A stretch of DNA of 64,000 nucleotides from a virus (taxonomy: Duplodnaviria > Caudoviricetes), in IMG/VR virus record IMGVR_UViG_3300020578_000065, positions 986 to 64,985 of that record; one strand, 5' to 3'. The notes beneath the pieces were generated by a model. It had not been told where the DNA came from and did not search any database. It was given only the letters and a program-made list of their open reading frames with translations. Below, piece by piece: positions 28,905 through 63,100 of the stretch. The translations under genes were made by a program, and so were the position numbers. Within the stretch, counting starts at the first letter, position 1. Each line of letters opens with the position of its first letter.

Positions 28905-29729
28905 ATGAATACTAATCCTTTAAAACAGTATTTTCGTCGCCCTAGCGTTTATTTAAAACTTCCTAGCGGGGGTCAAGGATATCCAGAAGGTTCTATCACA
29001 CTTAGTGATTCAGGTGAACTTCCTGTCTATCCAATGACCGCTATAGATGAAATTACTAGTAAAACTCCAGACGCACTGTTTAATGGTACTGCTGTTGTTG
29101 AAATTATTAAAAGTTGTGTACCAGATATTAAAGATCCATGGGTAATAAAGAATATTGATATTGATAGTATCTTAATTTCTATACGTGCTGCTTCAGGAGC
29201 AGGAAGTATAGATGTGAACACTAAATGCCCAAAGTGTTCAAATGAAGCCATGTATGGTGTTAATTTAGTGAGCGCACTTAATACTATGAAAAGTGGCGAT
29301 TATAATAAAGAACTATCAATAAATGATTTAAAAATTAAGTTTAAACCGTTAGATTATCGTGAATTAAATCGATCTAGTTTAGAACAAATGGAGATACAAA
29401 AACTTTTTACATCAATTGAAGGCACTGAAGATATAGCACAAAAGAATAAGTTAACAGAACAAGCATTACGTGGCCTTACTGATTTAACTATGGAACTAGT
29501 TTCTAAAGCAATAGATTATATAAAAACTCCAGAAACCATAGTGTCTCAGCCTGAATATATTTTAGAATTTTTAAAGAATGTAGATATGAAAGATTATGTA
29601 ACTATACGTGATTATAATGCTAGCCTTCGCTCACAGGCATCTTTAAAACCACTCGATATAAAGTGTACGGAGTGTGGGAACGAGTTTGAACAACCGTTTA
29701 CACTAAACATGTCTGATTTTTTCGGCTAA
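28905..29729 (+). CDS. Baseplate hub assembly/tail chaperone (T4 gp26-like)
   Basis: NPLKQYFRRP..Y.KLPS.G, YPMTAIDEI, two CxxC motifs (CPKC, CTEC), C-terminal DFFG. Confidence 0.8.
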   Translation: MNTNPLKQYFRRPSVYLKLPSGGQGYPEGSITLSDSGELPVYPMTAIDEITSKTPDALFNGTAVVEIIKSCVPDIKDPWVIKNIDIDSILISIRAASGAGSIDVNTKCPKCSNEAMYGVNLVSALNTMKSGDYNKELSINDLKIKFKPLDYRELNRSSLEQMEIQKLFTSIEGTEDIAQKNKLTEQALRGLTDLTMELVSKAIDYIKTPETIVSQPEYILEFLKNVDMKDYVTIRDYNASLRSQASLKPLDIKCTECGNEFEQPFTLNMSDFFG

Positions 29730-29953
29730 GGCTTCTTTATCTCGCTCCTGACGAAATTAAGAAGCTCATAGATCAATACGAAAAAGACGTTAATACAATT
29801 AAAAAAAATGCTCTATCAATAGCATGGTATATGCGTGGTGGTATTTCCTATACAGATGTTTTAAACTTAAGTCAAGAGGAATATGACATGTGTAATAAAT
29901 TAATTGAGCAAAATCTTGAAACAACCAAAAAGAGTAATTTACCATTCTTTTAA
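29717..29953 (+). CDS. -1 frame extension of the gp26-like gene (gp51-like segment), probably made by programmed frameshift
   Basis: 78 open codons (FFRLRLLYLAPDEIKKLIDQYEKD...WYMRGGISY...LETTKKSNLPFF*) begin at slippery T TTT TTC (29717-29723), immediately after an in-frame TGA, with no start codon until the internal Met. Confidence 0.65.
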   Translation, partial: FFRLRLLYLAPDEIKKLIDQYEKDVNTIKKNALSIAWYMRGGISYTDVLNLSQEEYDMCNKLIEQNLETTKKSNLPFF

Positions 29954-30362
29954 AGTTGTCCTACGGACAACTACTTCGTTCGCTATCGCTCACTCAGTTT
30001 CTTTTAAATTATTCTTGGATTTATATATTTTGCCGCTTTGAAGCCATGGTAGTGCTATTACAGCACTACCAAAGATTGAACTTGCCTGCCCATCATCCAT
30101 GTCGTTTGTTCCCATAATACTATCCTGTTTTGATGTATTATGCTACCGGTTATACTGTAAAGTTTATGGACTGTAGTTGTAGACTCATCATCTACTATAA
30201 CGCATGTTACATATCCGCAAAACGAAATAAGATATGTACTCATTGAGGGTTCGCAAACCTTTCGATTGCCCTCTCGGTATACGATACTATAAAAGTATCT
30301 TTACTCCAGATCCGCAGGCTACTGGCTTCCCAGGCTTGCTCAAGGAGGATAGTTAAACTATC
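29954..30362 (-). ncRNA. Candidate large structured non-coding RNA
   Basis: About 400 nt non-coding in a gene-dense genome, GC-richer than its flanks, with at least 8 hairpins, a long-range closing helix and a 7-bp crossing (pseudoknot) pairing. Strand inferred from G-U pairs and a GAAA loop. Confidence 0.6.
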
Positions 30363-30942
30363 AATTAAGTTTTGTGCTAACTAAAGTATTGGTATTTGTA
30401 TCAAGTGTTATAGTATTCGACTTGGTGTCTATAGAGATATTAGAGTATTTTTTAACGAAATCTTTATTCAATTTAAAAAAGTGATCAAAATCAATTATTA
30501 ACCAATCACCCAATTTATTACTAGTATAATACATAAATTGATCAGTGACCCAAGTGTATTTGCTTTGTACGCATACAAAACGTCCCTTGCGGTTAAATTT
30601 CATAAACAGTATATTAAAATCATCAGATTCAGCTACAGCCATCATTTGTTCTAACCAACCATCTAATACTTTACAGTCGCCCATTAGTACTAAATGAAAT
30701 GGAAAATCAGCGTAACTCTTACATTCTGCATTAAATTTTGGGAAACTCTGTCCTGGAACAATGTCACCCTTAAAACTACGTATTTGGCCTTCGTGTAATA
30801 TCTGTGTACGAACTTGATTTTTGCCGCCCACATATGCGCCGCTGCCCGGAGCACGTATAAAACTTTCGCGGTATAGGTTGCTTAAAAAAGCAGCAATTTC
30901 ACGTTCAAAACTTGAACCCTTTTGTTTTTGTGGGCTAGGCAT
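30361..30942 (-). CDS. Holliday junction resolvase-like PD-(D/E)xK nuclease (Hjc-type)
   Basis: KQKGSSFEREIA, RAPGSGA, GDIV, AECKSY. Confidence 0.8.
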   Translation of the reverse strand: MPSPQKQKGSSFEREIAAFLSNLYRESFIRAPGSGAYVGGKNQVRTQILHEGQIRSFKGDIVPGQSFPKFNAECKSYADFPFHLVLMGDCKVLDGWLEQMMAVAESDDFNILFMKFNRKGRFVCVQSKYTWVTDQFMYYTSNKLGDWLIIDFDHFFKLNKDFVKKYSNISIDTKSNTITLDTNTNTLVSTKLN

Positions 30943-30950
30943 ATTGTTAG

Positions 30951-32153
30951 TTATTCGTAAAATTTGTTATGAAATATTTTCTTACTTATTAATACACTTT
31001 GGTTGTGTTTGGTAATTTCCTTTACACCGTTAAGAAAATAAGTTAATTGATCTTGATTTAAATTACACAATCTTTCAATTTCTAACAGTATACAATATAG
31101 TCTCTCATTGTCATCTAAAACTGTATCATAGAACTCATTAATGTAAGGGCTAAATGTTTTGTATCCTATCTCTTTAAGTTTTTCTAGAAAATTAGGAACG
31201 CTTACTACGATAAAAGGATGTCCACACAATATAGGCTTGAAAATTTTCTCGCTTAATAATCTACCAGATTGATTATTTAAATGTGGTGCAGTACCAGTAT
31301 AAAAGTTAGTTTCAGTGATTACACTAAAATATGAATCTTTATAATACTTTATTAATTTTGGTTCTAAAGCTACACGATTTGTTTTTAAATCTGTAGTATC
31401 TACATATAGTGAAGGACTGTTAATTAAAGACTCTTTATTTTTATCTAAAGAATTTTTTATAATTGCATAATGTTTACTTAATTCTATAATTTCATCCCAT
31501 ATGTTTGACCAATTTTTATTATCATCAGCCTCACCTAAACTTACAAAGCCCTTATCAATTAAATTAAAATCTTTTAGCAGAGCAACTAATGTTACTCTAT
31601 GTGGGCGCCATCTGCGATTTAGACATAAGAATTTCTTATCATATTCTTTAGTCTGCAATATATTTACATTTTGGTTACGTATAAGTTTACTACATTTTTG
31701 TATGTCGTACTCTCCCTGACGTAACCATTCTGCTTTAATTAATTCTTTATTATAAATTTTACTTACACTGAGAATTTTATCAAATATGTCACTAGATTCA
31801 CTGCATAGTATTATTTGTGATTCAGGTATATGCTGCTCAATTACTATATTGGTATAGATACTGTCTACAACATCATGGAATGATTCATAGGAGTTGTTTA
31901 GTACCAAAAATATATCTTTGTTTATTATTTTATTTAAAATTTCAAAATTAATAAATGAATTTAATTTAAATTTGTTAAGACTTTTTGCTGAATTAAATTC
32001 CAGATAATATACAGGCAATTCAGAAAAATTACGAAAGCGTAACGAAATACCTCCATAACCCTGAACCATTTTACTAGTATGAACTTGTATTAGTTCGTCT
32101 TTGATATCATCACTATACAAATAGTAAATTTTGTCAGGATTTAGTATTGGCAT
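30951..32153 (-). CDS. Putative glycosyltransferase-related protein (GT10/exostosin-like C-terminus)
   Basis: KKFLCLNRRWRPHR, SYFSVITET, LSEKIFKPI...HPFIVV, LKEIGYKTF; visibly more AT-rich than its neighbours. Confidence 0.5.
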   Translation of the reverse strand: MPILNPDKIYYLYSDDIKDELIQVHTSKMVQGYGGISLRFRNFSELPVYYLEFNSAKSLNKFKLNSFINFEILNKIINKDIFLVLNNSYESFHDVVDSIYTNIVIEQHIPESQIILCSESSDIFDKILSVSKIYNKELIKAEWLRQGEYDIQKCSKLIRNQNVNILQTKEYDKKFLCLNRRWRPHRVTLVALLKDFNLIDKGFVSLGEADDNKNWSNIWDEIIELSKHYAIIKNSLDKNKESLINSPSLYVDTTDLKTNRVALEPKLIKYYKDSYFSVITETNFYTGTAPHLNNQSGRLLSEKIFKPILCGHPFIVVSVPNFLEKLKEIGYKTFSPYINEFYDTVLDDNERLYCILLEIERLCNLNQDQLTYFLNGVKEITKHNQSVLISKKIFHNKFYE

Positions 32154-34979: not shown

Positions 34980-35879
34980 TTATTCTTCATATTGATTGAA
35001 TTTTGTTCCACTCATTTGACGAGTAAAACTTGGGTTCAATCCATTCATTTCAAGAATATCATCACGAATATTTTGATTACGCTTTTCAGTATTCAATACA
35101 CGGCAGAAACTATTTGTGATAGCAGCAGTGTAATAAGCGAATGGATTAGCACTCTTTGCTTCATTGAAACGTAATCCAACATATGTCAATTGAAGTATGG
35201 CACTGTTACGCATTTCATCGTTGTATGTGTAACCGCGCCAGTTAAACTTCATGGCATATTTTTCGCAAAGCATGATAAACATACGTGCTAACTTATCAGT
35301 TAGTTTACCATGATCTTTACTAAACTGACCGGTCTTAACACCGCCCTTCCAATGACTTTTACCTACGCATATTGCACTATTGTTTTGATCTAACTTGTAG
35401 TGTTGGAACGGTGGAAAGTTCACCTTAACATGAACCATATCATCCACATCATCTTTGGTATAATCTTCAAGGTCAAGGTCGGCAAATAGGTTCTCTTCAC
35501 TATCTTCAAATTCAAGTATATCTAATGCTGTTTTCTTTTTTACAACCTTACGTGGTTGCTTTGGACTAACTGGGATATGATCCCAAGTCATAACACGAAA
35601 TACTAGATCAGTTACAGGAATATCTTTTAATTTTACTTCTTGTCCTGTTTGATTTAGTATTCTTGCTGCTCTTGCTTCTCTAGCAGCCTTAATGTTTTTG
35701 GGTCTTGATAATTGATCTAATGACTTTTCTAATGCACTTTGTGGCATATCAATGATTAGATCGTATTGATGATATTCCTGCCTAGCATAGCAGCAATATG
35801 ATGTTTTGCTAGCGTGAATCTCTTTGAGAATATCTTTATTGTTTAAATAATTTACAGGTTTCTTAATTGTTATAGACAT
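34980..35879 (-). CDS. gp55: Late transcription sigma factor (gp55-like)
   Basis: NYLNNKDILKEI, NWRGYTYNDEM, FNEAKSANPFAYYT...F...LNTEKRNQNI; ATG at 35879 behind an AGAGGA RBS. Confidence 0.88.
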   Translation of the reverse strand: MSITIKKPVNYLNNKDILKEIHASKTSYCCYARQEYHQYDLIIDMPQSALEKSLDQLSRPKNIKAAREARAARILNQTGQEVKLKDIPVTDLVFRVMTWDHIPVSPKQPRKVVKKKTALDILEFEDSEENLFADLDLEDYTKDDVDDMVHVKVNFPPFQHYKLDQNNSAICVGKSHWKGGVKTGQFSKDHGKLTDKLARMFIMLCEKYAMKFNWRGYTYNDEMRNSAILQLTYVGLRFNEAKSANPFAYYTAAITNSFCRVLNTEKRNQNIRDDILEMNGLNPSFTRQMSGTKFNQYEE

Positions 35880-35905
35880 AGTTCCTCTATTAATATGTTG
35901 CGTAA

Positions 35906-35934
35906 ATGATACATGGCCTGGCAACCTTTGTCAA
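35906..35934 (-). promoter_or_regulatory. Sigma70-type promoter for gp55 (TTGACA-N17-TATCAT)
   Basis: TTGACA at 35934-35929 and TATCAT at 35911-35906. Confidence 0.75.
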
Positions 35935-48178: not shown

Positions 48179-51100
48179 ATGGCAAGAATTAGAACGTTAA
48201 ATTTCTTACCTGAAATTTTTCATACTCCAACCAATCAACAATTCTTATCCGCTACTCTGGATCAAATTGTAAACAACTCTGATCAGAGACGTATACAGGG
48301 CTATGTAGGTAGTAAGTTTGGTTATGGTATTAACGCCAATGATCGCTATATTACAGAGCCTACTAAAATTAGAACAGATTATCAATTAACTCCTAGCATA
48401 ATCTTTACTAAAAAAGATGAGATGGCTGCTAAAGATTTTATAACTTACCCTGGATTAATTGACGCATTAAAGTTACAGGGCGGAGTTACTGAGAACAATA
48501 GTAAACTTTTCGAAAGTCAAATTTATAGTTGGGACCCATTTATTGACCTTGACAAAATTATTAACTTCAATCAATATTACTGGGCGCCAGAAGGGTTGCC
48601 AGCAGTTGAAATTGCTACTAATGTTGTATATAACAATACTGACTATGTAGTTAAAAGTGAATCAAATAATTATAATATTAGAAGTCTAGAAACGGCTACT
48701 GGCGAAGAAAATCCAACGTTAACGTTGTTGCGTGGCGGTACATATCGTTTTATTGTTGATCAAGATAGTGGTTTTTTTATTCAAACACAACCAGGCACCA
48801 GCGGTACAAGTGCCACACAACCAAATCGTAGTACACGACTAACACAAGATAATGGTGTAATTAACAATGGCGCTAGAGCAGGAGCAGTAATTTTTGAAGT
48901 CCCACAAGTTACAGCACAAGACAATCTTGTATTTACAAATCAAGTAGATGTTGATCTAGTAAGTAACTTAAACTTTCAAGATATAAATGGAAAATTATTA
49001 CAAGATGTAGAAAATATCGATGGAGTAACTGATTTAGAAGGCAGAACCATATTATTTTATAATAATACTACTGACGAAAAAGCATTTACAGATGGATTCT
49101 TTGCAGAAAGTAATTACGATATTAATATTGGCCTAATTAATGAAGCGGATCCTGATGAAATTTTTAATCCATCAGATAATTTTGCTAGCACTACGCCACT
49201 TACGATTGTAGTAACAAATACTTTAGCAAGTACTAATCGTTTGATAGTTGATACTACTAACTTACCCCAAAATGATATTAAGAATGTATTACAAGTAAAC
49301 AACGTTATTACATTTCCAAATAGTGTATTTGGGGGTATAAACCAATATAATGGTGCATTAAACAACGTAATTTATTATGTAAAAGAAATTATTGACGCAA
49401 ATAAATTTACAATATCGCAATCAATTAATGGTCCAGAAGTTACATTAACTACAGCAAGTGGTTCCATGAATGCTACTGTAAATCAAGGATTAAATGAAGA
49501 AGGATTTTACTCATTTGTTAATAATTATTTTTATATTGTAACTTATGTTGAAAATATAGATGATCCAGTAAATCCTATTATAAGATTAAAGCCTTATCAA
49601 CTAATTAATGAAAATACTCAAATTACAGCACTATATGGTACTGAATATATTGGTTTAGATTTTTATAAAGATTTAACAGGAAGTATAAAAGAAGTTCCAA
49701 ATATAACTGCTAATCTTAATACTCTATATTATCAAGATGCAAGTAATCCTAATAAGGTAGGTATACTACGCATAATAGAAAATAATATTGGTAATAACTT
49801 AAATGTTGAAACAGATATACTAGGTAAAAAGAATTTTCAAATTACAGTACCAAATCAGCAAGTAGTTATTTTTACTAATGGACTAAAGGTTTCCTTTAGT
49901 GGCGACGTTACCCCTATTAGTTATTTGGAAGGAGAGTATTATGTACAGGGTGTTGGTACTGAAAAAGGTATAGAATTAATTGATTTAAAAGAAACAGTAA
50001 CACCAGAGGCTTACACTTTTGAAAATCCTATACCATACGACATTTTTCCTTGGGACATAGGCGCATATAGTGGTAGTAATTCTATACCAATAAACAAAGA
50101 TTATATTACAATAGCACGTAATGCTATTAATAAAAATGGTTGGTCACGTAGCAACCGTTGGTTTCATAGTAGTGTAATTGATGCTACAGCAAAATATAAT
50201 AATAATCCAGAAATATTAAATGAATACGCAGTTGAAAAAAATAAAGCTAATCGTCCTATTATTGAATTTTATCCTAACTTAAAACTTTTTAATCAAGGCA
50301 CATTAGGTAAAACGCCCGTCGATTTTATAGATCGCAGAACATCTGATGCTTTCTCTATAGTAAATGGTCAGGTTAATTACTACCCTGATGTTAAAATATT
50401 TACAGGATATAATGCCACGATACAAGCAAGTCCGGGCTATAGTGGTACAGACAACGTTAATAGTACCGATTTAATTGTTGGCGAAATTTATGAAATTGTT
50501 AGTGTTGGTACTACCGATTGGATAGCATGCGGAGCAGAAAGTAACACAGCAGGAATATCATTTACTGCATCAGCAATAGGAGCAGGTACTGGCACAGCGA
50601 AGGCTTTAAGTTATACGTATGCATTAGTGCCACAAAGTTCAGTTAAAACATCACAGTCAGATGGTAGTATAATTGCTGCCACATTCACATTGACACAATA
50701 CATCAGTGATTTGGGAAACTACGAAAATCCTACTCCACTAAGTGGTATATTACCAACGAATGCTATAATTTCTTCAATCAGTGATATTACTATTTCTAGT
50801 ACAAAATATTTTAAATTACAAATTTCTTGGGCGAAAAATGATCCAATAGAGTCAGCATATACTAATAGATCACTTATTGCTAATCCATTTTTACAAGACT
50901 TTGATAATACAAATTATAATTTATTCAATGGCGCAAGAATAATTTTTGCAGCGGATACAAATGCTGAAGTACGTGATAAAATTTATGTTGTAAACTTATC
51001 GCCGATTACTGTAGGGGGCAAACCAATAATCTCATTGGTAGAGGCAAGTGATGGCGCTATTAAAGATAACGAACAAACAGTAATTACAAGAGGTTATTTT

Positions 51101-54100
51101 AATACAGGTAAAACGTACAGATTTACAGATGAAAATTATGGGGCATGGATATTAGCGCAGTTTAAATACGATACCAACCAAGAGCCTTTATTTGATGTAT
51201 TTGATAAAATAGGACAAAGTTTAAGTAACCAAGAAATTTATGAGGGCAGTAACTTTGCTGGTAGCAAACTATTTGCTTATGCGAAAGGTACTGGTACTGA
51301 TGATCCTGTATTAGGATTTCCTTTAGCATATAGTAGTTTAACAAATGTCGGTGATATTAAATTTGATGTTGCATTTAACAGTCAAAGATTTGATTACGTA
51401 AATAATTTAACAAACCTACCTGCGAATGAACCTATCAATTTGGGTTTCGTAAGAAATTATGAAACACGTAGTCTGTTTGAAAGATTGACAGGATGGGTAC
51501 CAGCCATTGCACCTAGCGTACAATATCAAAACTTCGAATTTGATTTTTTCTCTGAAAATCCAAATAGAATATTTCAAATCGATGTACCTGTAAACGATCA
51601 GAAGCCTGACTCATGGCCAGTTGCGTTTGTTTATATTAATAATATACCCGTAGAAAAATCAGATTACATATATGCTGTAGAAAACGGAAAAACAAACTTT
51701 TTCATAGATGTAAAAAGTTTAACTAATACCAAAGTTCAAATACAGGTATTAAGTGATAAAGTAAGTAGTTCTGGTTATTATAGTATACCAATAAATTTAA
51801 ATAATAACCCATTTAATACAGATATTAAAGAAGTTAATATTGGCGATATACGTAGACAATATACAAGTATTTTCTATAATAATAATACCATAAAAGGTGA
51901 AATTTTTGGCAATAATAATTTCCAAGATTTAGGAGATTTAATTTATTGGGGCGATAAAATTATACAGAATAGTGCTAGTTTAGTCGCTCCAGGCACTTTT
52001 AATAGAACTGAAAATAATAATTTATTTAATGCATTACTTTACAATAGTAGAGAATATATTAAATTTAAAACTTTATTAGTTGATACTGTAAACAATACAG
52101 ATTATCCACAAAGATATACTCCAGCAGTAATATTAGACGATGCATTAGATCAAATTACAAGTTCAAAAAGCCAAGAACAAAGTTTCTTTTGGTCTGATAT
52201 GGTTCCAAGTAAATCTCCATTTATAACAAATACGTATACCATAAAAAATAATATTGAAACTAGTTTTTATGATCTTAGTAAAATCTATAATTATACAAAG
52301 GCAAATTACGATGGAGTTTTAGTATACCTACAACGCAAAGCAGGAGTAATCAATAATGTATCGCAGTTAATGAAAGATGTTGATTATACAATTAGTACTG
52401 ATAGTCCATCATTAACAATCACAAAAGATTTGTTAAAGGGCGACACAATAATTATAAACGAATACAATCAAACATATGGCTCATATGTTCCTAACACTCC
52501 AACTAAGTTAGGTATGTATCCTGCTACAAAACCAGCAGTAATATATGATAAAAGTTATCAAAATTTTACATACTTTATTGTTGGTCATGATGGATCTTAC
52601 AATAAACTATATGGTAACTACGATCCTGTGACAAATACGTTACAGGACTATAGAGATCAAGTTTTATTTGAATTTGAAAATAGAGTTTACAATAATTTAA
52701 AACTTGAAGGATTGATTAGCCCAGTACAACAATTTGATTATATACCTGGATTCTTCAGATCAGAAGTTAATAATTTAACTAATTTAAATTATGAGCAATG
52801 GATCAGTATGTATAGTTTAACTTTCCTTGATTGGATTGGTCAAAATAGATTAAATTATAAAACACAAGTGTTTAACAGAAGTTCGCCATGGACTTATAAT
52901 TATAGAGATAGTTTAAATAAAGTTAATAAATCTTTAGTAACACAGGGTGATTGGCGTGGGTTGTATCAATATTTTTATGATACAACAACTCCTAACACTA
53001 CTCCTTGGGAAATGTTAGGATATGCTAATAAACCAAATTGGTGGGAAGAACGATACGGTCCTGCACCATATACAAGCAACAACCAACAATTATGGCAAGA
53101 TTTAGAAGCAGGATATGACTATGGCAGTCCAATATTAGATAGTAAGGATTTAATTATAGGAAAAAAATATAGAATTATTACATTAGGTACAACTGATTGG
53201 AATATAGTAGCAGGTACTTCAGGAGTTGCTTATAATGTCAATGACGATATCACTATAGTAAATCAGTACTTAGGGACAGGCACAGCGAATTCCATTATTA
53301 CATTTGCTGCTCGTCCAGGTCTATCTGAGATACTTCCAGTTAACGCCGCAGGTCAATTACTTAATCCAATAGAGTGTTTACTATCTAATTATGACGGAAA
53401 TATTTTTAAACGTGATTGGATTATAGGAGATAACGCTGCTGTAGAACTTTCATATCGTAGAAGTAGTTCATATCCTTTCGATTGTTTAAGAATTTTTGCG
53501 CTTTCTAATCCTGCAAAGTTTTATAACCTTTGTATCGATTTGGATGATTACAGATACAATATTGAATTTAATCAATATCTAGTAGATGATCGTAAACACT
53601 TAATTTACGATGATATAAAAATTTATGGTAATGGCACAGCAAAAACTAGTTACCTAAACTGGATAGTTGATTATCAAAAACAACAAGGCATCAAGGCAAC
53701 ACAAAATATTGAAGATTTGTTATACAATCTAGATGTAAGACTTACATACCGAATGGCAGGCTTTAGTGATAAAACTTTACTTAAGTTCTTTGTAGAAAAG
53801 AGCAATCCTAGTGCAACAAATACTTCATTATTAATACCAGATGCAAGTTATCAAGTTTTATTGTATGAAAATCAACCATCAGATAAAATAATTTTTACAT
53901 CAGTAATTATACAAAAAACAAAAAATGGATTTAAGGTATATGGTAATAGTCAAAAAAATGCATATTTTACTACTCTAGCACCTGACATAAACTCTCAACC
54001 TCTGCAAATTATTGTTGAAGGCCTTGAAGTAAATGTATATTCAAGTAGTTTAAATGAATATGAATATGTTCCATATGGCACTGAGTTTTATAACGTACAA

Positions 54101-57100
54101 GATGTAGCACAATTTATGCTTAATTATGGTGCTTATACCATATCATTAGGAGCAAAATATGAAACTCAATTAAATGGTATTGAAATAAATTGGGAAACTA
54201 TGGTTGCTGAGTTTTTGTATTGGGCGCAAATAGGTTGGGTAATTGGAGCAACATTAAATTGTAATCCAGCAGCATTGAGTTTAGAAATTGATAAAGAGAG
54301 TCATGTTGTACAACCATTAACTTTATATAAAGAAAATTTTGTACTAAATCAAAATCTTTTCCCTATTCAATTGAGCAATTTATCTATAGTGCGTGATGGT
54401 ACCAACTTTAAAGTTACTTGTTTAAATGAAGGAGAAATAGTAAGTTATGGTGAATTTAATTTGTCAAATATGGAGCATGGTATAGTATTTGATAACATAA
54501 CAGAATTCCAAGATATCATCTATAATTTAACAACCGGGGTACGCCAGAATAGAATTTATACTATAGGTAGTAAGAGTGCTGAATGGAACGGTTTCTTGTA
54601 TATTGCTGGCTTTATTTATAATCAAGACAATATTAAAGAATGGAATAAAAATACAAAATACACTAAGGGCAACATAGTAGAATATAAAAATAGATATTAT
54701 AGTGCTACTAAAGTTATTCAACCAGCAGAATCTTTCCAAGAAACTGAATGGATCGTAACTGATTATAATGAAATACAGAAAGGATTATTACCGAATAGTG
54801 CGACACGTAGTTACGAAAGCACATTGTATTATAATTCAAATAATGCAAACCTAGAAAATGAAGCGGACTTATTATCGTTTAGTTTGATAGGTTTTAGACC
54901 GCGCAGTTATATGAAAGCAGCGGATCTGACTGATATTACACAAGTTAACGTATTTAAAAATCTAATTAAAAATAAAGGCACGAAAAATGCAATAGACGCA
55001 TTTAAAGGCGCAAATTTACCGCAGGGCGGAATACAATATGATTTATATGAAAACTGGGCCATACTATCAGGAAAATTTGGTGGTTCACTAAGTGAAAATT
55101 TTATTGAAATAAGACTAAATGAAAATAAAATGGTAGGCAATCCTGGTACAGTATCGCTTACTACTGGCGATTTTACACCAGGCATGCAACAGTATGTACC
55201 ACTGAACAAAATATTTAATTACTCTCAGCCAATCACTAATGTGAACGTACTGCCAACTAAACCATACTCTCCGAATATGGTGTATCCTGATGCAGGATAC
55301 GTAAACTTTAATGATGTTAAAATGTCAAGTTATTTTTATAGCGACTTGCCAAATGCTATAAACAAGCAAGGTGATGTTGTTCCAATAGAAAATGTTTATG
55401 TTAGAGATTATATTTGGTTAGCAGATTATTTAGGCTCATGGAAAGTATGTACGCCTGACATTTTAATTAATAATTATAACAAAAGTTCTCCTGCTCCAGT
55501 CATTATAAATTTGACAACTAATCCCAATGGTACTGCAACACTTACATTTAATAATGCTCATGGATTAGAAAAATTTGATTTAATTATAATTATTAATTTT
55601 GATACAAGTGTTAATGGATATTATACAGTTTCAGAAATTATAAATCCAACACAAATATTAATAAACTTTGTTACCACAGAAGGTCTTATAATATCAGGCG
55701 AAGGCACTTGCTTAAAGTTAATAAATCAGCGTGTAAGTAATCCTACTAAGATACTTAATTTACCATTGCTATCAAGCGAATTTACACAAAATACTGTTTG
55801 GGTAGATGAAAATGATGATGGTGCTTGGGCTGTTTATCGCAAGAGTTTAAATTACAAGCGTGTAAAAGAATTAGAGATTGAAGGCAGCACCTCGTATGGA
55901 TATAGTGTTGCTTATAATGATAATTTTGGTTATCTAGTAGGAGATCCAGGGGATGTTGATAATACTGATGATATAACTCCAGGTAACGTTTATAGATACA
56001 CAGGACCATTAGATAACTTATTATTACTAGAAACATTTAATACAGGGGAAAGAAGTTTTGGACAAACAATAGCATACAATAATAACACAATAGTAATTTC
56101 ACAACCAACTGCAACTACAGACAAAAAAGTTTTTGTTTACGTTTATAATTCAAATAATAGTCTTACAGAAGATTTATTACTAACTCAGGAAATAGAACCT
56201 CCAACAACTGTAGATTCTTGGGGAGAATCATTAGCAATTAGCAATGATGGTAACTACATCTTTATCTTGAACAATGAAGATGCATTATCAAACAATAAAG
56301 AAATCTATGCTTACAAGCGTCAAAATATTAATCTAAGTGCAGAATATTTAACAGCCGACGAAACATATATTATTACTAGTGTGGGCACTACTGATTTTGC
56401 AGCAATTAGTACAACTACAACTACTACTGAAAACAAAGTAGGACAAATATTTGTAGCGACAGGCGCAGGCACAGGAACAGGCACGGTCACACAAATTAGT
56501 TATAAATTTGCTGGAATCATTTCTGATATTGATTCTACTGTGGGCGATAATTTTGGTAAATCTATTGCTTGCGATTACTATGCTGATACTATAGTTGTAG
56601 GAGCACCTAATTCAGATTACACAAGTCTTACTACAACTAAAAGTGATTGGGGTAGAGCAGTAGTTTATAATAGAATTTCACAAAATATTGAAGTGCAAAG
56701 CAATAGCGTTGGCGAAAATGCACAAGTATTCACGCTATTTGTTGATCCAAGTCCAGACACGGTTACTGTTAACTTATTAAACACTTATTCAAATAATGCA
56801 ATGGAACTATCAAGCACGACTGATATAAGTGTTAATGACCCAATAGTATTTTTAGGATCAGGACTTGCAGCAACTAATATTATAACAGCAAAAACTTATT
56901 ACGTAGCAGAATTAATTGCTGGTAATAAAATTAAAATTAAAACATCAAGATCAACAACTGATGTCTCTACACTAATAGAAAAACTAAGCATACCAGAAGG
57001 TACAGCAACGGCAACACCACAATTTTTACATGTTGATGTTACTGTTAACGGTATTAGCGTACAAGATAATAATTATGCATTAGTTGATACAACACTTTAT

Positions 57101-60100
57101 TATTCAACATATCTCAATGCAGGAGATATTATAAATATTAGCCAAAACACTTTTGTTAAGGTTCAAACTTTAACCTCAACGAATACACCAAAGACAGGTG
57201 TAGCCTTTGGTACAAGTGTTGATATTACATCTTTCGGAACAGAGATTATTGTTGGTGCTCCATTTGAATTACAAGATGGCAATGAAGGGGGCGTTTATAG
57301 ATTTACTGACGCCGGCGGCGAATATGGTATGATTATAGGCAGTGAAGAAGTTAATCTGACTACAAACCAATCAATATTATTAAATGGATACATGGTAAAT
57401 TTACTAGACGGATCAAATGCTGCTGATGTCGCGCAAACAATTAATTCAGCAAAAATAACCAATGTTCAAGCAGCAAGTACAGATCAAAACAAACTTATTA
57501 TTTCTTTAAGAAATATGTCTATTGCTGCTGCTAACCATGAATTAGAATTAACTGTTTCATCAATTGATACATTAAATGAATTAGGTATTACAATCTATCC
57601 TAATACACAACTTATTTCTTGTCCGCACAGTGAAACTCAGACGCAGTTTGGTAGCGTAGTAAAATTTGACGAAAGTAATAATAGTTTTGTTGCTAGTGCT
57701 CCAACTGGCACACGTTTTGCTGCTACTACTTTTGATTTTATTGATGATGAAAATCAGGACAACGATACAGTATTTGACAATAATGCAACACGTTGGATAG
57801 ACACATTTAGAAATGCTGGCGCAGTTTATATGTTTGATTATATTGCAAAATATGATGAAACTGTAACTGAACCAGGGGCCTACGTTTATGCTCAAAGTGT
57901 AAATTCAAATAGTTTAAGTTATGGTACACAGCCATTATATGGGTCAGCATTAGCATTTACAGACAATACAGTATTAGTAGGTACCCCTTATTATAAACCA
58001 GAAAGCGTGGATGGCCAAGTTGTAATATTTGATAATACTACTGGTCAAACAGACTGGGCAGTGTATCGTAAATCATGTGATATTGTTGATATTAATAGAA
58101 TAAACAATATACAATTATTCAGTGCTGAGACCAACAATTCTCTTTTAAACTTAGATTATATCGATCCATTAGCAGGTAAGATTTTTGGTGCAGTAAGACA
58201 AAATATTGATTATGTTTGTAACTTAGATCCAGCAAGTTACAATAATATTAGTAATAATACTAATGTTATTTGGGGTGATAACAACGTAGGCAAATTATGG
58301 CTAGATACATCAAACATGCGTTTTGTAAATTATCATCAAAATGACCCTGTTTATAATGCAACATATTGGGGAACATTATTCCCAGGTAGTGATCCAGCAA
58401 TTTATACATGGGTAGTCAGTGTTGATCCACCAACGCAATATACAGGGGTAGGCGTACCTAAAGATTTTAATAAATTTAGTATACAAACATTTATTGATCA
58501 ATCAGGCACGGTAACTCTTTGTTATTACTTCTGGGTGCGCTTTACTAATGTTATTGTACCCAATAGTGGAAAAACTTTATCTGATACAGTTATGGAGTCA
58601 TACTTATTGAATCCGCTACAATCTGGTATATCATATTTTGCTCCTCTGTTACCAAACAGTTATGCGATTTACAATGCTCAACAAAGTATTAAAAACACTG
58701 ATACAATATTGCATATAGGATATAAGAGTACAACAAGCGAAAGTATACCACATCAAGAATTTAATTTAGTTCGTTCAAACTTTGCTGATGACTTTTTGCC
58801 AGGACTGCCCAATACACAATATCCACATCCAACCTACTTATATGATAGAATGCTTGATAGCATGGCGGGAGTAGACGAGGAAGGTAGCACAGTACCTAAT
58901 CCGTATTTGCCAAGAGCAGTACAAAGTGGCGTATTGGTACGTCCAAGACAAAGTTTCTTTTATAATCGTTATACTGCATTAAAAAATTACATACAATATG
59001 CCAATACAATTATGGCACAATATCCGTTGGTTGAAATACGTCCAGACGCAACATTTTTTTATAAAGAAAATAAACCAATATTTGATATTGTTACTGGATT
59101 ATTAATTGTAAAGGACTTAACGTATAACATAGTAACATTAGGTAATACTACTTGGAGCACCATTGGCGCAACATTAGTCAGTGCAGGAGATTTTGTTATA
59201 GGTAAAACCTATATTATTAATACAATTAGCAATACAGATTACACGCTAATTGGGGCTAATACAAATAGTGTAGGAGTAAAATTTATTGCTACTGGTACTG
59301 GAAACGGCAACGGAACTGGCACTGCGTATGAAATTACTTTTACTGCTACTGCTAATGGCAACGGCGATGGCACTGCAAGCACATTGACATTTGATGAGGG
59401 AGAATTATATAAAACTTCTGATTATGTAACAAGAATAGATTGGTGGGCAGAAGGGTTCGATAATAATACCAAACCAGCATTTCAAGTGCAGTTATATAGC
59501 GATTTGCTACGATTGGAAAATATTGATATTAACACTATAGCCAGAGTTATAAAGGGCGGCAACAATACTAGAGAAACTTATATCTATGTTATCGAAACAT
59601 TAGATGATAATACTCAAATTGAACGTTGGAAGAGAATTGGGCTTGAAAAAGGCACATATGAAATTAGCAAAGAAATATATGATTATGATTTAGGTAAATA
59701 TGGCTACGGTGGAAACTTTTATGATACTGATAGTTTTGATGACTTCCCAAGTAATGAAACACGTTGGATAATACGTTGCTTAAACGAACAAATATTTACC
59801 AATGAACTGTTAATACATCGTAATAAAGCATTAATATTGCTATTTGAATATATTGTAAGTGAAACAAATGAAAGTCAAAATTATTTACCATGGTTAAACA
59901 AAACATCGCTGGTAGATGTAAAACACACAGTACGTGAACTTCTACCAACTGAAAAATTTCGTACTGATAGTGATGAGTTTTTAAGTGGCTACTTCAATGA
60001 AGTGAAACCTTATCACGTAGTAATAAAAGAATTTTTATTAAATTATACAAAACTAGATGTTTACCCTGGTACATTAACTGATTTTGATTTACCAGCATCA

Positions 60101-63100
60101 TATAATACTACTCAAGACGAATTCATTACTCCTCAGTTAGTTTACGGCCCACTTGTACAAAATAATAATAATCAATTCGATAAAACTAGTAGTGAGTGGC
60201 AAAACGATATTTACAACGAATGGTACAATAATTGGGGCTTGATGTTAAGCAGTTCCTATCAGTCTCCAAGTTATACAGACTACCTAACTGAAAATGAAAA
60301 ACTAGAAGAAACTATATATAGTGCAAACTATTTTATGACTACTCTACAAACATATTTGCCAATAACATCTACTACAGCAATTATGAAAAATGTTAGTGGT
60401 TTTCCGGTAACAGGTACATTTAGAATTGAGGAAGAACTCATTACCTATGCTGGAATTGATCGTGCAAGAAATTTATTAACAGGATTAACAAGAGGCGTAG
60501 AGGGTACAACTAAAACCGTACATTTGCCTAACTCAGAAGTTTATATGGAATTGCCGCCTATTATCGTAATTGACAGCGGTAGTCAATATAATGAGTTCAC
60601 ACCAAAAGTAACTGCTGTTGTTGATGAATTGATATATAGTGCACCAAGAAAACCTGCAGTACTTCAAGCAGTAATGGCCCTAGATAAAGTTATTAATATT
60701 GAAGTTTTGGATCCAGGATCTGGCTTCGAAACTAAGCCAGAAATAGTTATTGAACCATCTATAAAAATAGTCTTTAATAGCACAGCAGTAGACAATAATA
60801 CTAATACTATTTCAATTAGTGGTTTCACATTAAAAACAGGCGATAGTATAAAATATATTGCTGGATTCATAACTGTTGACGCTACAAATATTGTCCCGTC
60901 ACAAATTTATACAATCCAAACTATAGGCACTACAAATTTCACATTAATGGGCGCACCAAATAATCTAGTTGGAACAAAATTTATAGCAACTAGAGTTGGT
61001 ACAGGCACAGGCACATTAAAACAAAGCGTTCCAATTGATTATCTTGTAGACAATCAATGGTATTATGTTAGATTAATTGATAATATTCCTAATCCTATAG
61101 TAGCATTGTATGCCTCATACGCAGAAGCAGTACAGGATAAAAACAAGATTCCAATACAAGTATCAACTACAAATGTTGAAAATCAACTATGGTTAGGTGC
61201 AAGAGCATTAGCGGTCACAACAGCACAACCTGTTCGTGAAAATATTGTATCAATTAAATTTGATAGAAATAGTTTTGATAGTAAAGTCACTGATTGGGCT
61301 AAAGATAGGTTTTATGGTAGTTTCTTTGCAGGCGATTACGAAAGTCAAAGTGCTTCAAGTTGGTCACTAAAACTACAGTCAACACAGCCTGATATCAACT
61401 CAGTTTTAACATCATCACAAGGCTTTGTATTCCCAATTTACAATGCAACTAGAGAAAGTGAAGTAATACAGTCAACATTTGAACGTAGCGTCGAAAGTTT
61501 TATAGGCTCTACAATTACTTTAAAACTAAATGCCCCTTTATCTTCAACCACTTCTGGATCAACAATAGGCTTTTATGTTGGTATGCCAATTAAATTCAAT
61601 GGTAATATTTCTATTACCGGGTTACAAAATAATACCTATTACTATGTTAAAACAATATTAAATGAGACTGACTTTACAATCAGCGCAGAGCCAAATGGTA
61701 CAGTTATTTCATTTCCAATTAATTTGATTCCTACAGCAACAGTAGCATGTTATACAGGGGACGTTGTATATGGCACTCAAATTACTACAAATTATGATGG
61801 TATAAGAAAAGTTACAAAAAGCAGCAGTACAAATAATGCTTATACAATACCTGTAACTGCATTGGGCACCGGGGGTACACAACATATGTATATTGGTGCT
61901 CCAGTTATGTTTACACTTGATTTATTTGGCGGTGTAAGACAGAATCAGGTATATTATGTAACCACAGTTATCGACAGCGAGAACTTCACTATAAGTGAAA
62001 ATTCTACTCCATCAACATATTCTTTATTATCAGCATCATCAACAACAAATGAAATTCAATTAAATGTAGTGTCTGGCTTGAATATTGGCGATCCAATTAT
62101 TGTTAATAGCATGAGTATTGATGGTGTCTCAGTCCTTGACTTTGGTAATATTATTGCAGGAACAGTTTACTATATCTATGATATAGATGTACTAAATTCT
62201 GTCATAAAATTAACTACTGTTAAGAATGGTACAACAGAGTTAAGTTTAGATGATGTTTCAGAGGGAACAGGAACGTCAGCACTACTTACTTCACAAGTTG
62301 ATGTCGTACAGTTAGATAATTATACCAATGGCGATATGACTATGAACTTAGGTCTACCAGTAAGTCCTGGACAAGTCAATGGTCAAGCATTTACATTCTA
62401 TGAAACAGGTGCTGTATATGGGCCATTAGAACCAGATTTATTATTAAATGTAATTCAACGTAATATTGTGCAAAGCGTGGATACTAGCGACATTTTAGCA
62501 TTTAGTGAGTTGGGCGCTGGATTAACTGATGTGTACGTAAATATGCCATTTACACTTAACAAAAACATAGGTGGTTTAATCAAAAATGATGTGTATTATG
62601 TAAAATCGCAGAATACTATTAACGTATCTTGCAGTAGTAGTGGCAGTGGCACAATAATTAATTGTACAAGTACTAGTTTAATATACGATAAAATGCCAAT
62701 AGTATTTCAACCAGATCCCAATGGGGCTGAGCCAAAAGTATTTGGAACTATTATACAAGGACAAACTTATTATGTAAGAACAATAGGCATTGCTCCTTAT
62801 ACTAGTTTCCGTATTGCAAATTATCCTAACGGTACTCCTATTAATATAGGTAATGATTCAGGTAATATGCTAGGTATAGGCCCAGATTACATTACTGTAA
62901 GCAGCACATTAGGTGGCTCAACATTAACTTTATCTAGCCAAGCATTAAATGTTGTACTAACACAACATACAGACTTTGAAACAGATACTCCAACGTTTAC
63001 TGTACAATCGTTCTTAGGAGGATACAGCGTTCAGATTGTAAATCCAGGATCAGGCTTTACAATAGGTAATAAATTAATAATTTACGGGGAATATATAGGC

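What the first reader, a model, noticed from the sequence alone, without database searches (positions are those of the whole stretch)
30030..30362. Candidate novel large pseudoknotted ncRNA downstream of the resolvase gene
Seen in sequence (read on the minus strand): a long-range helix TTGAGC-AA-GCCTG (30343-30331) pairs with CAGGC-AA-GTTCAA (30088-30076). A crossing 7-bp pairing GAAGCCA (30329-30323) with TGGCTTC (30046-30040) forms a pseudoknot. An inner helix TACCG/CGGTA (30279-30275 with 30148-30144) encloses several stems. Hairpins occur at 30283-30299, 30245-30273 (GAAA loop), 30208-30238, 30179-30195, 30113-30142 and 30047-30071 (10 bp). This is the largest non-coding gap in the window and is GC-richer than its flanks. 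I recognise no tRNA, tmRNA or group I/II core; the GGAAGCCA/UGGCUUC pairing only loosely recalls RNase P P4. Inference: an undescribed phage structured RNA (ribozyme, scaffold or replication-associated), co-transcribed with gp55-gp47-gp46-resolvase.
Basis: partly seen in the sequence, partly recalled or inferred. Interest (0 to 1): 0.85.

Follow-up and report, generated by a model that had tools for sequence, protein, structure and literature searches.

The report
New structured RNA in jumbo phages
A conserved, intricately folded non-coding RNA of about 335 nucleotides sits just after the resolvase gene in a group of uncultivated freshwater jumbo phages; it matches no described RNA family and its function is unknown.

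Summary
The element is real and it is RNA. Window 30362-30030, minus strand, is a single-copy, non-coding sequence. It lies directly after a RusA-like/PDDEXK resolvase gene and faces a convergent baseplate-hub gene. The core was found in 79 of 80 related phage loci collected through the protein alone. It occurs once in each of 5 near-complete 303-525 kb phage genomes.

On 102 non-redundant copies, 88% of cells pair against 75% in shuffles (0/500). The covariation score is 0.386, against 0.156 in shuffles and 0.06-0.09 in slid controls. G-U outnumbers A-C 336 to 24, which fixes the strand.

The fold has about 12 helices around a four-way junction and two pseudoknots. PK1 pairs the P7 loop with 30107-30102. 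PK2 pairs 30170-30168 with 30112-30110.

Its long-range helix and its GAAGCCA/TGGCTTC pseudoknot do not (51.4% paired vs 50.9% shuffled).

No Rfam family, tRNA, tmRNA or coding signal fits. No cellular genome and none of three named jumbo phages holds it. I read it as a new family of ornate phage RNA that probably acts as a folded RNA in trans. Expression could not be tested.

The parts
30030..30362 (-). Core of the structured RNA (P1 to the 3' tail), about 333 nt in the window and 335-410 nt in relatives.
   Evidence: blastn found it downstream of the resolvase gene in 79 of 80 loci. 124 of 125 distinct extracts have the 5' block 270-354 nt before the 3' hairpin. Covariation is shown.
30348..30362 (-). 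P1 hairpin (GAUAG UUUAA CUAUC), closed directly before the CUCC block.
   Evidence: 97 of 102 sequences have at least 5 uninterrupted pairs here, against 14 of 102 shuffles. It is misaligned in the MAFFT alignment, so it scores low.
30304..30347 (-). P2 (CUCC 30347-30344 with GGAG 30307-30304), enclosing the invariant UUGAG and hairpin P3 (30335-30318).
   Evidence: P2 is 100% paired; 2 sequences change C-G to U-A. P3's outer pairs are 99.5% paired. Its inner stem varies in length: 54 of 102 sequences have at least 5 uninterrupted pairs, against 20 of 102 shuffles.
30283..30299 (-). P4 hairpin; most relatives cap it with a GNRA tetraloop.
   Evidence: 6 of 6 pairs change on both sides; 92.4% paired. 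Loop sequences were read.
30275..30279 (-). P5 5' strand (UACCG).
   Evidence: Pairs with 30148-30144. 98.2% paired, 3 of 5 pairs with double changes. RNAalifold predicts it independently.
30144..30148 (-). P5 3' strand (CGGUA).
   Evidence: Same as the P5 5' strand. Variants GUCG/CGAC and AUCG/CGAU were seen.
30245..30273 (-). P6 (GAGGG/CCCUC) with inner helix P6a (UCG/CGA) and the invariant GCGAAC.
   Evidence: P6 is 100% paired, 4 of 5 pairs with double changes. P6a is 99.7% paired, 2 of 3. RNAalifold also predicts both.
30204..30243 (-). P7 hairpin: 3 outer pairs, a small internal loop and 8 inner pairs. Its loop carries the PK1 5' strand.
   Evidence: 10 of 10 counted pairs change on both sides; 99.1% paired. 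The third outer pair (30243 with 30204) comes from RNAalifold only.
30220..30225 (-). PK1 5' strand (UCGUUU), in the P7 loop.
   Evidence: Pairs with 30107-30102. 97.4% paired, 5 of 6 pairs with double changes. It was found first as top mutual-information pairs.
30102..30107 (-). PK1 3' strand (AAACGA).
30196..30201 (-). P8 5' strand. It follows the invariant UGCG and stacks on P5.
   Evidence: Pairs with 30154-30149. 96.5% paired, 4 of 5 pairs with double changes. RNAalifold adds a sixth pair.
30149..30154 (-). P8 3' strand.
30179..30195 (-). P9 hairpin, of variable length.
   Evidence: 86 of 102 sequences have at least 4 uninterrupted pairs, against 17 of 102 shuffles. It is only 59.8% paired in the MAFFT alignment.
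30155..30178 (-). Nearly invariant junction strands (C)AACUACAG ... AUAAACUUUACAG, flanking the PK2 5' strand (30170-30168).
   Evidence: Invariant and 90%-conserved columns are listed.
30110..30112 (-). PK2 3' strand (GGA; GGGA in most relatives), pairing with 30170-30168 (UCC).
   Evidence: 94 of 102 sequences form 3-4 contiguous pairs. Permuted partners give a mean of 64 and a maximum of 73 in 1000 trials. First-pair types are U-A 60, C-G 16, A-U 10, G-C 6.
30113..30142 (-). P10 hairpin (8 + 3 pairs).
   Evidence: 10 of 11 pairs change on both sides; 93.3% paired, with many U-G pairs.
30078..30091 (-). P11, a tentative hairpin with a GGCAA-type loop.
   Evidence: 57% paired. It was not separated from shuffles, so it is unresolved.
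30048..30070 (-). P12, a 9-bp hairpin of almost invariant sequence with a variable loop.
   Evidence: 99.7% paired, 8 of 9 pairs invariant. Most sequences were collected or filtered with this very pattern. Among the protein-collected copies shown the stem is also nearly constant.
30030..30047 (-). Conserved 3' tail AUGGCUUCAAAGCGGCAA.
   Evidence: Conservation is shown. A non-Watson-Crick covariation (G-G to U-U) links 30036 and 30089. No Watson-Crick partner has been proven.
29954..29998 (-). Two further conserved hairpins: H13 (about 29998-29973) and H14 (29972-29954, AGUUGUCC GUA GGACAACU). They abut the stop codon of the convergent reading frame.
   Evidence: H14 is present in 130 of 130 distinct loci with 33 different stems. 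Pairs 1-7 are Watson-Crick in 908 of 910 cells, with no G-U. The loop is GNA in the RNA sense. It is not repeated elsewhere in the window.
30361..30942 (-). Upstream gene: PDDEXK / RusA-like Holliday-junction resolvase.
   Evidence: PF24608, E 1.3e-22; phrog_244. It lies upstream of the RNA in 161 of 162 loci with enough sequence.
28905..29953 (+). Convergent baseplate-hub gene (to 29729) and its -1-frame extension (to 29953).
   Evidence: PF12322; phrog_150. It is convergent downstream in 165 of 173 loci. The extension was read.

Best explanation
This is a new family of structured non-coding RNA carried once per genome by a clade of uncultivated freshwater T4-like jumbo phages.

Shown:
- It is encoded on the window's minus strand. 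It lies directly after the resolvase gene and converges with the baseplate-hub gene.
- It folds into about 12 helices.
- A four-way junction (P5/P6/P7/P8) carries long, nearly invariant single strands.
- Two pseudoknots lock the fold. PK1 ties the P7 loop to a strand 110 nt downstream. PK2 ties the invariant junction to the strand right after P10.

Inferred:
- The RNA works as a folded molecule, not as a message or a simple mRNA signal.
- Most likely it is a stable trans-acting RNA of the ornate kind. The invariant junction and the invariant P12 stem would form a binding or catalytic surface for a phage or host partner, or for copies of itself. PK1 could pair in cis or between molecules.
- It would be made by read-through from the recombination operon or from its own promoter. 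Its 3' end would be bounded by the two stable hairpins H13 and H14.

My odds: a real structured RNA family, about 0.95. Acting in trans as an RNP or RNA assembly, rather than in cis, about 0.45.
For: Conservation:
- The covariance model of the core finds one full-length match on the resolvase strand in 79 of 80 loci collected through the protein alone. The miss, L027, ends 117 nt after the gene.
- There is one match in each of 5 genomes of 303-525 kb, with CheckV completeness 86-100%.
- The window has one match of 126.7 bits; the next best is 9.9 bits.

Structure:
- On 102 non-redundant sequences, 88.0% of cells pair against 75.2% in shuffles.
- 63 of 92 pairs change on both sides.
- The covariation score is 0.386, against 0.156 in shuffles (0/500) and 0.061-0.093 when partners are slid.
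- RNAalifold on an independent subset recovers P5-P8: 23 of 29 predicted pairs show double changes.
- PK2 forms in 94 of 102 sequences, against a maximum of 73 in 1000 permutations.

Strand: 336 G-U cells against 24 A-C cells over the 65 well-aligned pairs.

Not coding.

Sophistication:
- 57 invariant columns, of which 37 lie outside the pattern used for collecting.
- There are two pseudoknots and a multistem junction.
- GNRA loops cap P4.
- These are the criteria that Weinberg et al. 2017 use for biochemically sophisticated RNAs (PMC5737381, passages read).

No fixed relation to the upstream stop codon: it lies from -51 to +57 nt relative to the CUCC block in 112 distinct loci. This argues against a recoding signal.
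Against: - No transcript evidence of any kind. Start, end, abundance and stability are unknown.
- The synteny is rigid: 161/162 upstream and 165/173 downstream. A purely trans-acting gene need not keep its place, so this equally fits a cis role at the end of the operon.
- No candidate partner protein was found. SmpB, RNase P protein and Ro/TROVE are absent from 5 genomes. The adjacent 400-aa ORF is not conserved with the RNA.
- The sample is ascertained. Most sequences were collected or filtered by the exact P12 pattern and a near-exact 5' block, which inflates the apparent invariance.
- The sequences are related, so shuffle controls overstate significance.
- P11, the 5' domain's long-range contacts and the partner of the 3' tail are unresolved.
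Confidence: 0.6

Rival explanations
1. A cis-acting element at the end of the recombination operon. A compact fold plus the terminal hairpins would protect the mRNA 3' end from exonucleases, or insulate the two convergent transcription units from each other. It would have no independent trans function.
For: - The position is invariant: directly after the resolvase gene and facing a convergent late gene.
- Two stable hairpins follow the core. H14 keeps strict Watson-Crick pairing with no G-U in 130 loci, as expected if both transcripts must fold it.
- The window shows no recognisable promoter of its own.
Against: - A nuclease block or terminator does not need about 330 nt, two pseudoknots and 37 invariant, mostly unpaired positions.
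- The G-U/A-C asymmetry shows that only one strand's fold is selected in the core.
- Neither hairpin is followed by a U-run: only 15 of 129 loci have at least 4 T in the next 9 nt.
Confidence: 0.2
2. A new large ribozyme. One option is a self-processing RNA that releases itself from the operon transcript. Another is a catalyst that acts on a further RNA.
For: - The complexity and the invariant junction nucleotides resemble those of large ribozymes.
- The order P5[...PK2 5' strand] P10 PK2 3' strand has the same topology as the P3-P7-P8 pseudoknot of group I introns. That comparison is my own, from recalled group I architecture.
Against: - No known ribozyme family matches, even at E<=10.
- No conserved cleavage-site context was identified.
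- The joining regions differ from group I: 13 nt lie between the PK2 5' strand and P8 3', and 0 nt between P10 and the PK2 3' strand.
- The element is not inside a gene.
Confidence: 0.12
3. A replication-associated element. Either an origin transcript or primer RNA comparable in principle to ColE1 RNA II or T4 origin transcripts, or a DNA-level structure.
For: - It lies next to recombination and replication genes.
- An A+T-rich stretch follows the core.
- GNA-loop mini-hairpins (C-GAA-G) follow it. From recall, these are known as very stable single-stranded DNA hairpins at some phage origins.
Against: - G-U pairs are frequent in the core (336 vs 24 A-C), which points to RNA rather than duplex DNA or a cruciform.
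- There is no change of GC-skew trend at the site.
- No origin features were tested.
Confidence: 0.05
4. A very divergent member of a described family: RNase P RNA, tmRNA, group I intron, GOLLD/ROOL or phi29 pRNA.
For:
- A short similarity between ACAG..AACCGGUA and the RNase P CR-V region, from my recall.
- The weak, wrong-strand RAGATH-33 hit: 19.7 bits against a gathering score of 120.4.
Against: - No family reaches its gathering score in 64 kb.
- Only unrelated chance hits appear at E<=10 in the window and in two divergent homologues.
- ARAGORN finds no tmRNA.
- The helix order differs from that of RNase P and tmRNA.
- SmpB and RNase P protein are absent from 5 genomes.
- The proposed P4-like pairing fails.
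Confidence: 0.03

Closest known systems
GOLLD and ROOL RNAs (large ornate RNAs often found in prophages and phages)
   Same: Large, intricately folded, pseudoknotted non-coding RNAs carried by phages. They have many conserved nucleotides and no known function. GOLLD, ROOL and OLE form RNA-only multimers; I saw only the start of the abstract of PMC12286853 in the listing. The properties of ROOL and GOLLD come from passages of PMC5737381.
   Different: - No covariance-model match.
- Roughly half the size or less: about 335 nt against 581 nt for ROOL.
- Not near tRNA genes; there are none in the 64-kb window.
- Fixed synteny in one lytic-type jumbo-phage clade rather than scattered across bacterial phyla.
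- Absent from 185,579 species' genomes by the pattern scan.
phi29 packaging RNA (pRNA)
   Same: A phage-encoded structured RNA that works as a part of a molecular machine and oligomerises through loop-loop pairing (recalled). PK1 here could equally be intermolecular. The gene lies between a resolvase and virion genes.
   Different: No Rfam match. The size and fold differ, the phage group is unrelated, and nothing here shows oligomerisation or a role in packaging.
Group I intron catalytic core (P3-P7-P8 pseudoknot)
   Same: The strand order has the same topology. An enclosing helix holds several hairpins and the 5' strand of a pseudoknot, whose 3' strand follows the next hairpin (recalled architecture).
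   Different: It is not inside a gene and has no exon context. No Rfam group I model matches. The junction lengths and conserved sequences differ.
Bacterial RNase P RNA
   Same: Similar size, a long-range helix with conserved flanks, and pseudoknots.
   Different: No model match. The helix order differs. No RNase P protein gene was found in 5 complete relatives.

Membership tests
Any Rfam 15 family (4227 covariance models) | Score at or above the family's gathering threshold. | tested here: not met
   There are 0 matches in the whole window. At E<=10 only unrelated hits far below threshold appear in the window and in homologues L054 and L126. No family recurs.
RNase P RNA | A P4 long-range helix between conserved regions CR-I and CR-V, and a match to an RNase P model. 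| tested here: not met
   No model match. The GAAGCCA/UGGCUUC pairing shows no covariation: 42.4% paired.
RNase P RNA | Pre-tRNA 5' cleavage activity. | not testable with these tools
   This needs a biochemical assay.
tmRNA | A tRNA-like domain formed by the 5' and 3' ends, plus a tag reading frame. | tested here: not met
   ARAGORN finds none in the window. There is no Rfam tmRNA match. The partner SmpB is absent from 5 of 5 complete relatives, and the same search rang in 10 control genomes.
Group I intron | Interrupts a gene, has P1 with a U-G at the 5' splice site, and matches a group I model. | tested here: not met
   It lies after the stop codon, at variable distance. No reading frame continues downstream on that strand. 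No model match.
GOLLD / ROOL | Match to the family model. | tested here: not met
Biochemically sophisticated RNA, by the criteria of Weinberg et al. 2017 | [quoted passage not shown] | tested here: met
   PK1 and PK2 covary. P5/P6/P7/P8 form a four-way junction. The criteria were read in PMC5737381.
Biochemically sophisticated RNA, by the criteria of Weinberg et al. 2017 | Multiple nucleotides conserved at 97% or more. | tested here: met
   57 invariant columns in 102 sequences, 37 of them outside the collecting pattern. This is inflated by the way the sequences were collected.
Biochemically sophisticated RNA, by the criteria of Weinberg et al. 2017 | Present in multiple phyla. | tested here: not met
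   It was seen only in one syntenic clade of phage contigs. There are 0 pattern matches in genome contigs and 0 of 3 named jumbo phages have it. The hosts are unknown.
Protein-coding gene | A conserved open frame, 3-periodic substitution, and indels in multiples of three. | tested here: not met

The most novel reading that the evidence does not exclude
The RNA is a new class of large functional RNA specific to jumbo phages. It would be either a ribozyme or a self-assembling RNA component of a phage machine, for example in recombination-dependent replication or packaging, or in virion assembly. PK1 would pair between molecules. The invariant junction and the P12 stem would serve as the active or docking surface.
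Probability: 0.2. Interest if true: 0.9.

Novelty: new member of a known kind. Interest (0 to 1): 0.72.

Why it matters
- Large natural RNAs with complex tertiary folds are rare. Most of those known turned out to be ribozymes, riboswitch-like sensors or architectural RNAs.
- Jumbo phages are known for their protein novelties, not for RNA genes of this kind.
- This one is single-copy and kept in every near-complete genome of its clade that I examined.
- Parts of it are more conserved than the neighbouring proteins, so it is probably important for infection.
- The alignment is ready-made and rich in covariation, with more than 100 distinct sequences. That makes the RNA directly tractable for probing, cryo-EM and activity assays, even though the phages are uncultivated.

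Tried and rejected
- Expression: the look-up of sequencing runs listed 22 holders, all lake-water DNA, and no RNA holder.
- DNA similarity: blastn of the interval against 50,697 phage records found nothing.
- Named relatives: the resolvase has relatives in Salicola phage SCTP-2, Pseudomonas phage PA5oct and Sinorhizobium phage Phosso, at 42% identity or less. These have no intergenic gap after that gene and no R1 match anywhere (0 of 3).
- Partner proteins: SmpB, RNase P protein and TROVE/Ro are absent from 5 of 5 complete relatives.
- The 400-aa ORF just upstream: it has no Pfam or PHROG family and no solved relative. The Atlas lists only unnamed viral clusters. It is present in only 2 of 5 complete relatives, far from the RNA. 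I rejected it as a partner and did not fold it.
- A closing helix UUGAG (30343-30339) with UUCAA (30042-30038): 90.7% paired, but with one-sided changes only. It stays unproven.
- Partners for the strands flanking P3 and for the 3' tail: a mutual-information scan found no Watson-Crick partner.
- P11 and a helix closing it: not distinguishable from shuffles.
- Recoding signal: rejected, because the stop-codon position varies.
- Late promoter in front of the RNA: the canonical TATAAATA occurs elsewhere in the window but not here. The motif TAAAAATTNGTT precedes P1 in most relatives but not in the window, so this is unresolved.
- ACGAAGT as a repeated element: 5 matches against 4.7 expected. The other four lie in coding sequence.
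- Literature: three searches by topic and one by six 9-nt motifs, requiring at least 2 of the 6 (0 papers), found no description. The preprint 10.64898/2026.10.21.760802 holds none of six context words. Subscription journals and all supplementary files were not searchable. The supplement of PMC5737381, with the diagrams of all 224 motifs, was not seen. From recall, those motifs are in Rfam, which was searched.
- Not used: one metagenome-contig scan and two RNA-model slots.
Full report
**What is there**

The window is a 64-kb piece of a 64,985-bp IMG/VR virus record. CheckV estimates it at 19% complete, which points to a genome of roughly 300 kb or more.

On the minus strand the genes run in this order:
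- a late sigma factor (gp55-like, 35924-34980);
- an SbcD/gp47-like protein (34935-33916);
- an SbcC/gp46-like protein (33919-32153);
- a 400-aa ORF of no known family (32153-30951);
- a PDDEXK / RusA-like resolvase (30942-30361).

A plus-strand baseplate-hub gene (28905-29729) converges on them. Between the two lies the interval of the finding.

I found no coding signal in the interval:
- The longest stop-free stretch per homologue equals that of shuffles (median 61 vs 60 aa).
- Conservation has no three-base period.
- Length differences are spread over all three residues modulo 3.

ARAGORN finds no tRNA or tmRNA in the window.

**Is it more than chance?**

The single sequence folds better than shuffles on both strands: z -4.1 and -4.0. 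That alone is weak evidence. The comparative evidence is strong.

- I collected 80 IMG/VR loci through the resolvase protein. blastn found the interval downstream of the gene in 79 of them.
- The alignment shows long, nearly invariant single-stranded blocks that alternate with variable stems.
- The same pattern found none in one genome each of 185,579 bacterial and archaeal species.
- In 124 of 125 distinct extracts the conserved 5' block lies 270-354 nt before the 3' hairpin.
- I built a covariance model of the P5-enclosed core (R1, 154 positions). It finds one full-length match on the resolvase strand in 79 of the 80 protein-collected loci. The missing locus ends 117 nt after the gene. Many of these loci contributed to the model.
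- R1 finds exactly one match in each of five genomes of 303-525 kb, 86-100% complete.
- In the window R1 gives one match of 126.7 bits; the next best is 9.9 bits.

**The fold**

I aligned 102 non-redundant full-length copies (A1). I then counted pairs for a structure derived from the window sequence, from mutual information and from inspection.

Whole-structure counts:

| Measure | Observed | Shuffles | Slid partners |
|---|---|---|---|
| Cells paired | 88.0% | 75.2% (0/500 as high) | 34-43% |
| Covariation score | 0.386 | 0.156 (0/500 as high) | 0.061-0.093 |
| Pairs changing on both sides | 63 of 92 | 52.2 (mean; 0/500 as high) | 31-40 |

Well-supported helices:

| Helix | Cells paired | Pairs with changes on both sides |
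|---|---|---|
| P4 | 92.4% | 6 of 6 |
| P5 | 98.2% | 3 of 5 |
| P6 | 100% | 4 of 5 |
| P6a | 99.7% | 2 of 3 |
| P7 | 99.1% | 10 of 10 |
| P8 | 96.5% | 4 of 5 |
| P10 | 93.3% | 10 of 11 |
| PK1 (P7 loop 30225-30220 with 30107-30102) | 97.4% | 5 of 6 |

RNAalifold was run without my structure on 59 core sequences. It recovers P5, P6, P6a, P7 and P8, and 23 of its 29 pairs show double changes.

MAFFT misaligns the length-variable hairpins, so I re-tested them anchored on their flanks:

| Helix | Criterion | Observed | Shuffled |
|---|---|---|---|
| P1 | at least 5 uninterrupted pairs | 97 of 102 | 14 of 102 |
| P9 | at least 4 uninterrupted pairs | 86 of 102 | 17 of 102 |
| P3 | at least 5 uninterrupted pairs | 54 of 102 | 20 of 102 |

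The second pseudoknot, PK2, pairs the 3-4 nt after the invariant ACUACAG with the G-run right after P10. It forms in 94 of 102 sequences. Permuted partners give a mean of 64 and a maximum of 73 in 1000 trials. All four Watson-Crick types occur at its first pair.

P12 is paired but almost invariant. P11, the long-range contacts of the 5' domain and the partner of the conserved 3' tail remain unresolved.

One non-Watson-Crick covariation, G-G to U-U, links 30089 and 30036.

Caveats on these numbers:
- The sequences are related.
- Most were collected or filtered through the exact P12 pattern and a near-exact 5' block.
- Invariance is therefore overstated, and the shuffle controls are generous.

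**Strand**

Over the 65 well-aligned pairs there are 336 G-U cells and 24 A-C cells. The RNA is therefore read on the window's minus strand, in the direction of the resolvase gene.

- All six local hairpins and the TACCG/CGGTA helix are right.
- The long-range helix 30343-30331/30088-30076 and the pseudoknot GAAGCCA/TGGCTTC are not. They give 51.4% paired against 50.9% in shuffles, and a covariation score of 0.093 against 0.093.
- GAAGCCA belongs to the local, variable hairpin P3.
- The interval is slightly richer in G+C than its flanks.
- Once the giant open-ended ORF at 48179-64000 is counted, it is the largest ORF-free gap in my crude gene call.

**Context**

- The position is fixed. The resolvase gene lies upstream in 161 of 162 loci with enough sequence. 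The baseplate-hub gene lies convergent downstream in 165 of 173.
- The distance from the resolvase stop codon to the RNA varies: -51 to +57 nt relative to the CUCC block in 112 distinct loci. A recoding function is therefore unlikely.
- About 70-80% of 126 distinct upstream regions carry TAAAAATTNGTT directly before P1. This contains a -10-like TAAAAT six bases upstream. The window itself does not carry it.
- Canonical T4 late promoters (TATAAATA) occur elsewhere in the window but not here.
- Downstream of the core come an A+T-rich linker and two further conserved hairpins.
- The last of these, H14 (29972-29954), abuts the stop codon of the convergent frame. It is present in 130 of 130 distinct loci with 33 different stems. 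It keeps strict Watson-Crick pairs (908 of 910 cells in pairs 1-7) without a single G-U. That pattern is expected if both convergent transcripts must fold it.
- Only 15 of 129 loci have a T-rich run after the strongest hairpin.

**What it is not**

- No Rfam family reaches threshold.
- Permissive scans of the window and of two divergent homologues give only different chance hits.
- Three named jumbo phages with a related resolvase have no room for the RNA at that position and no R1 match anywhere.
- SmpB, RNase P protein and Ro/TROVE genes are absent from five complete relatives. The first two searches rang in 10 control genomes each; the Ro/TROVE search rang in 2.
- The neighbouring 400-aa ORF is not conserved with the RNA.

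**How it most likely works**

Shown:
- It is a single-copy, strongly conserved, one-strand-selected RNA fold.
- It has a four-way junction, two pseudoknots and long invariant junction strands.
- GNRA caps on P4 occur in most members.

Inferred:
- Such features are those of RNAs that act through their three-dimensional shape.
- I therefore read it as a stable, trans-acting ornate RNA. It would bind a partner, assemble with itself or catalyse a reaction. I give this about 0.45.
- A cis role at the operon's 3' end comes next, at about 0.2.
- A ribozyme is at about 0.12, a replication-linked RNA at about 0.05, and a divergent known family at about 0.03.
- Covariation cannot tell whether PK1 forms within one molecule or between molecules.

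**Novelty**

I found no description in Rfam 15. Full-text searches by topic and by sequence motif also found none. These searches do not cover subscription journals or supplements.

It is a new family within the known kind of large structured phage RNAs of unknown function. GOLLD and ROOL are the nearest in spirit (PMC5737381, passages read; PMC12286853, abstract start only).

No transcript data could be obtained. No RNA holder was listed.

Noticed in passing
window 29715-29953 (+): The baseplate-hub gene ends ...GAT TTT TTC GGC TAA. The -1 frame then stays open for 75 more codons, up to the hairpin H14. The T TTT TTC heptamer is visible in several relatives. The extension keeps the same relative frame in 15 of 16 distinct junctions (a crude count). 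This is a candidate programmed -1 frameshift that would give a long form of the gp26-like hub protein.
   Followed up: partly
window 29954-29998 (-): Two conserved hairpins lie between the RNA core and the convergent stop codon. H14 is strictly Watson-Crick in 130 loci, with 33 different stems and a GNA loop. H13 has a conserved purine-rich loop that holds a mini-hairpin of the C-GAA-G type. They may be a bidirectional terminator or stabiliser, or the RNA's own 3' domain.
   Followed up: partly
60 nt upstream of P1 in 126 distinct loci; window 30363-30375: The motif TAAAAATTNGTT lies directly 5' of P1 in most relatives. It is -10-like and could be an own promoter. The window has CAAAACTTAATT instead.
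   Followed up: partly
window 48179-64000 (+): A giant open reading frame of at least 5274 codons runs off the end of the window.
   Followed up: no
window 30951-32153 (-): A 400-aa ORF between the gp46-like gene and the resolvase has no Pfam, PHROG or solved relative. It belongs to unnamed viral clusters. It is found in only 2 of 5 complete relatives, elsewhere in the genome. It looks like a mobile or variable insertion in this phage.
   Followed up: partly
window 30089 and 30036 (-): A non-Watson-Crick covariation links a G in the GGGC block before P11 with the base before CGGCAA in the 3' tail: G-G 69, U-U 18, G-C 10, G-A 8. This may be a tertiary contact.
   Followed up: partly
window 25162, 35996 (-) and 44271 (+): Canonical T4-type late promoter sequences (TATAAATA) lie 13-72 nt before gene starts. 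This fits the gp55-like late sigma factor at 34980-35924.
   Followed up: no
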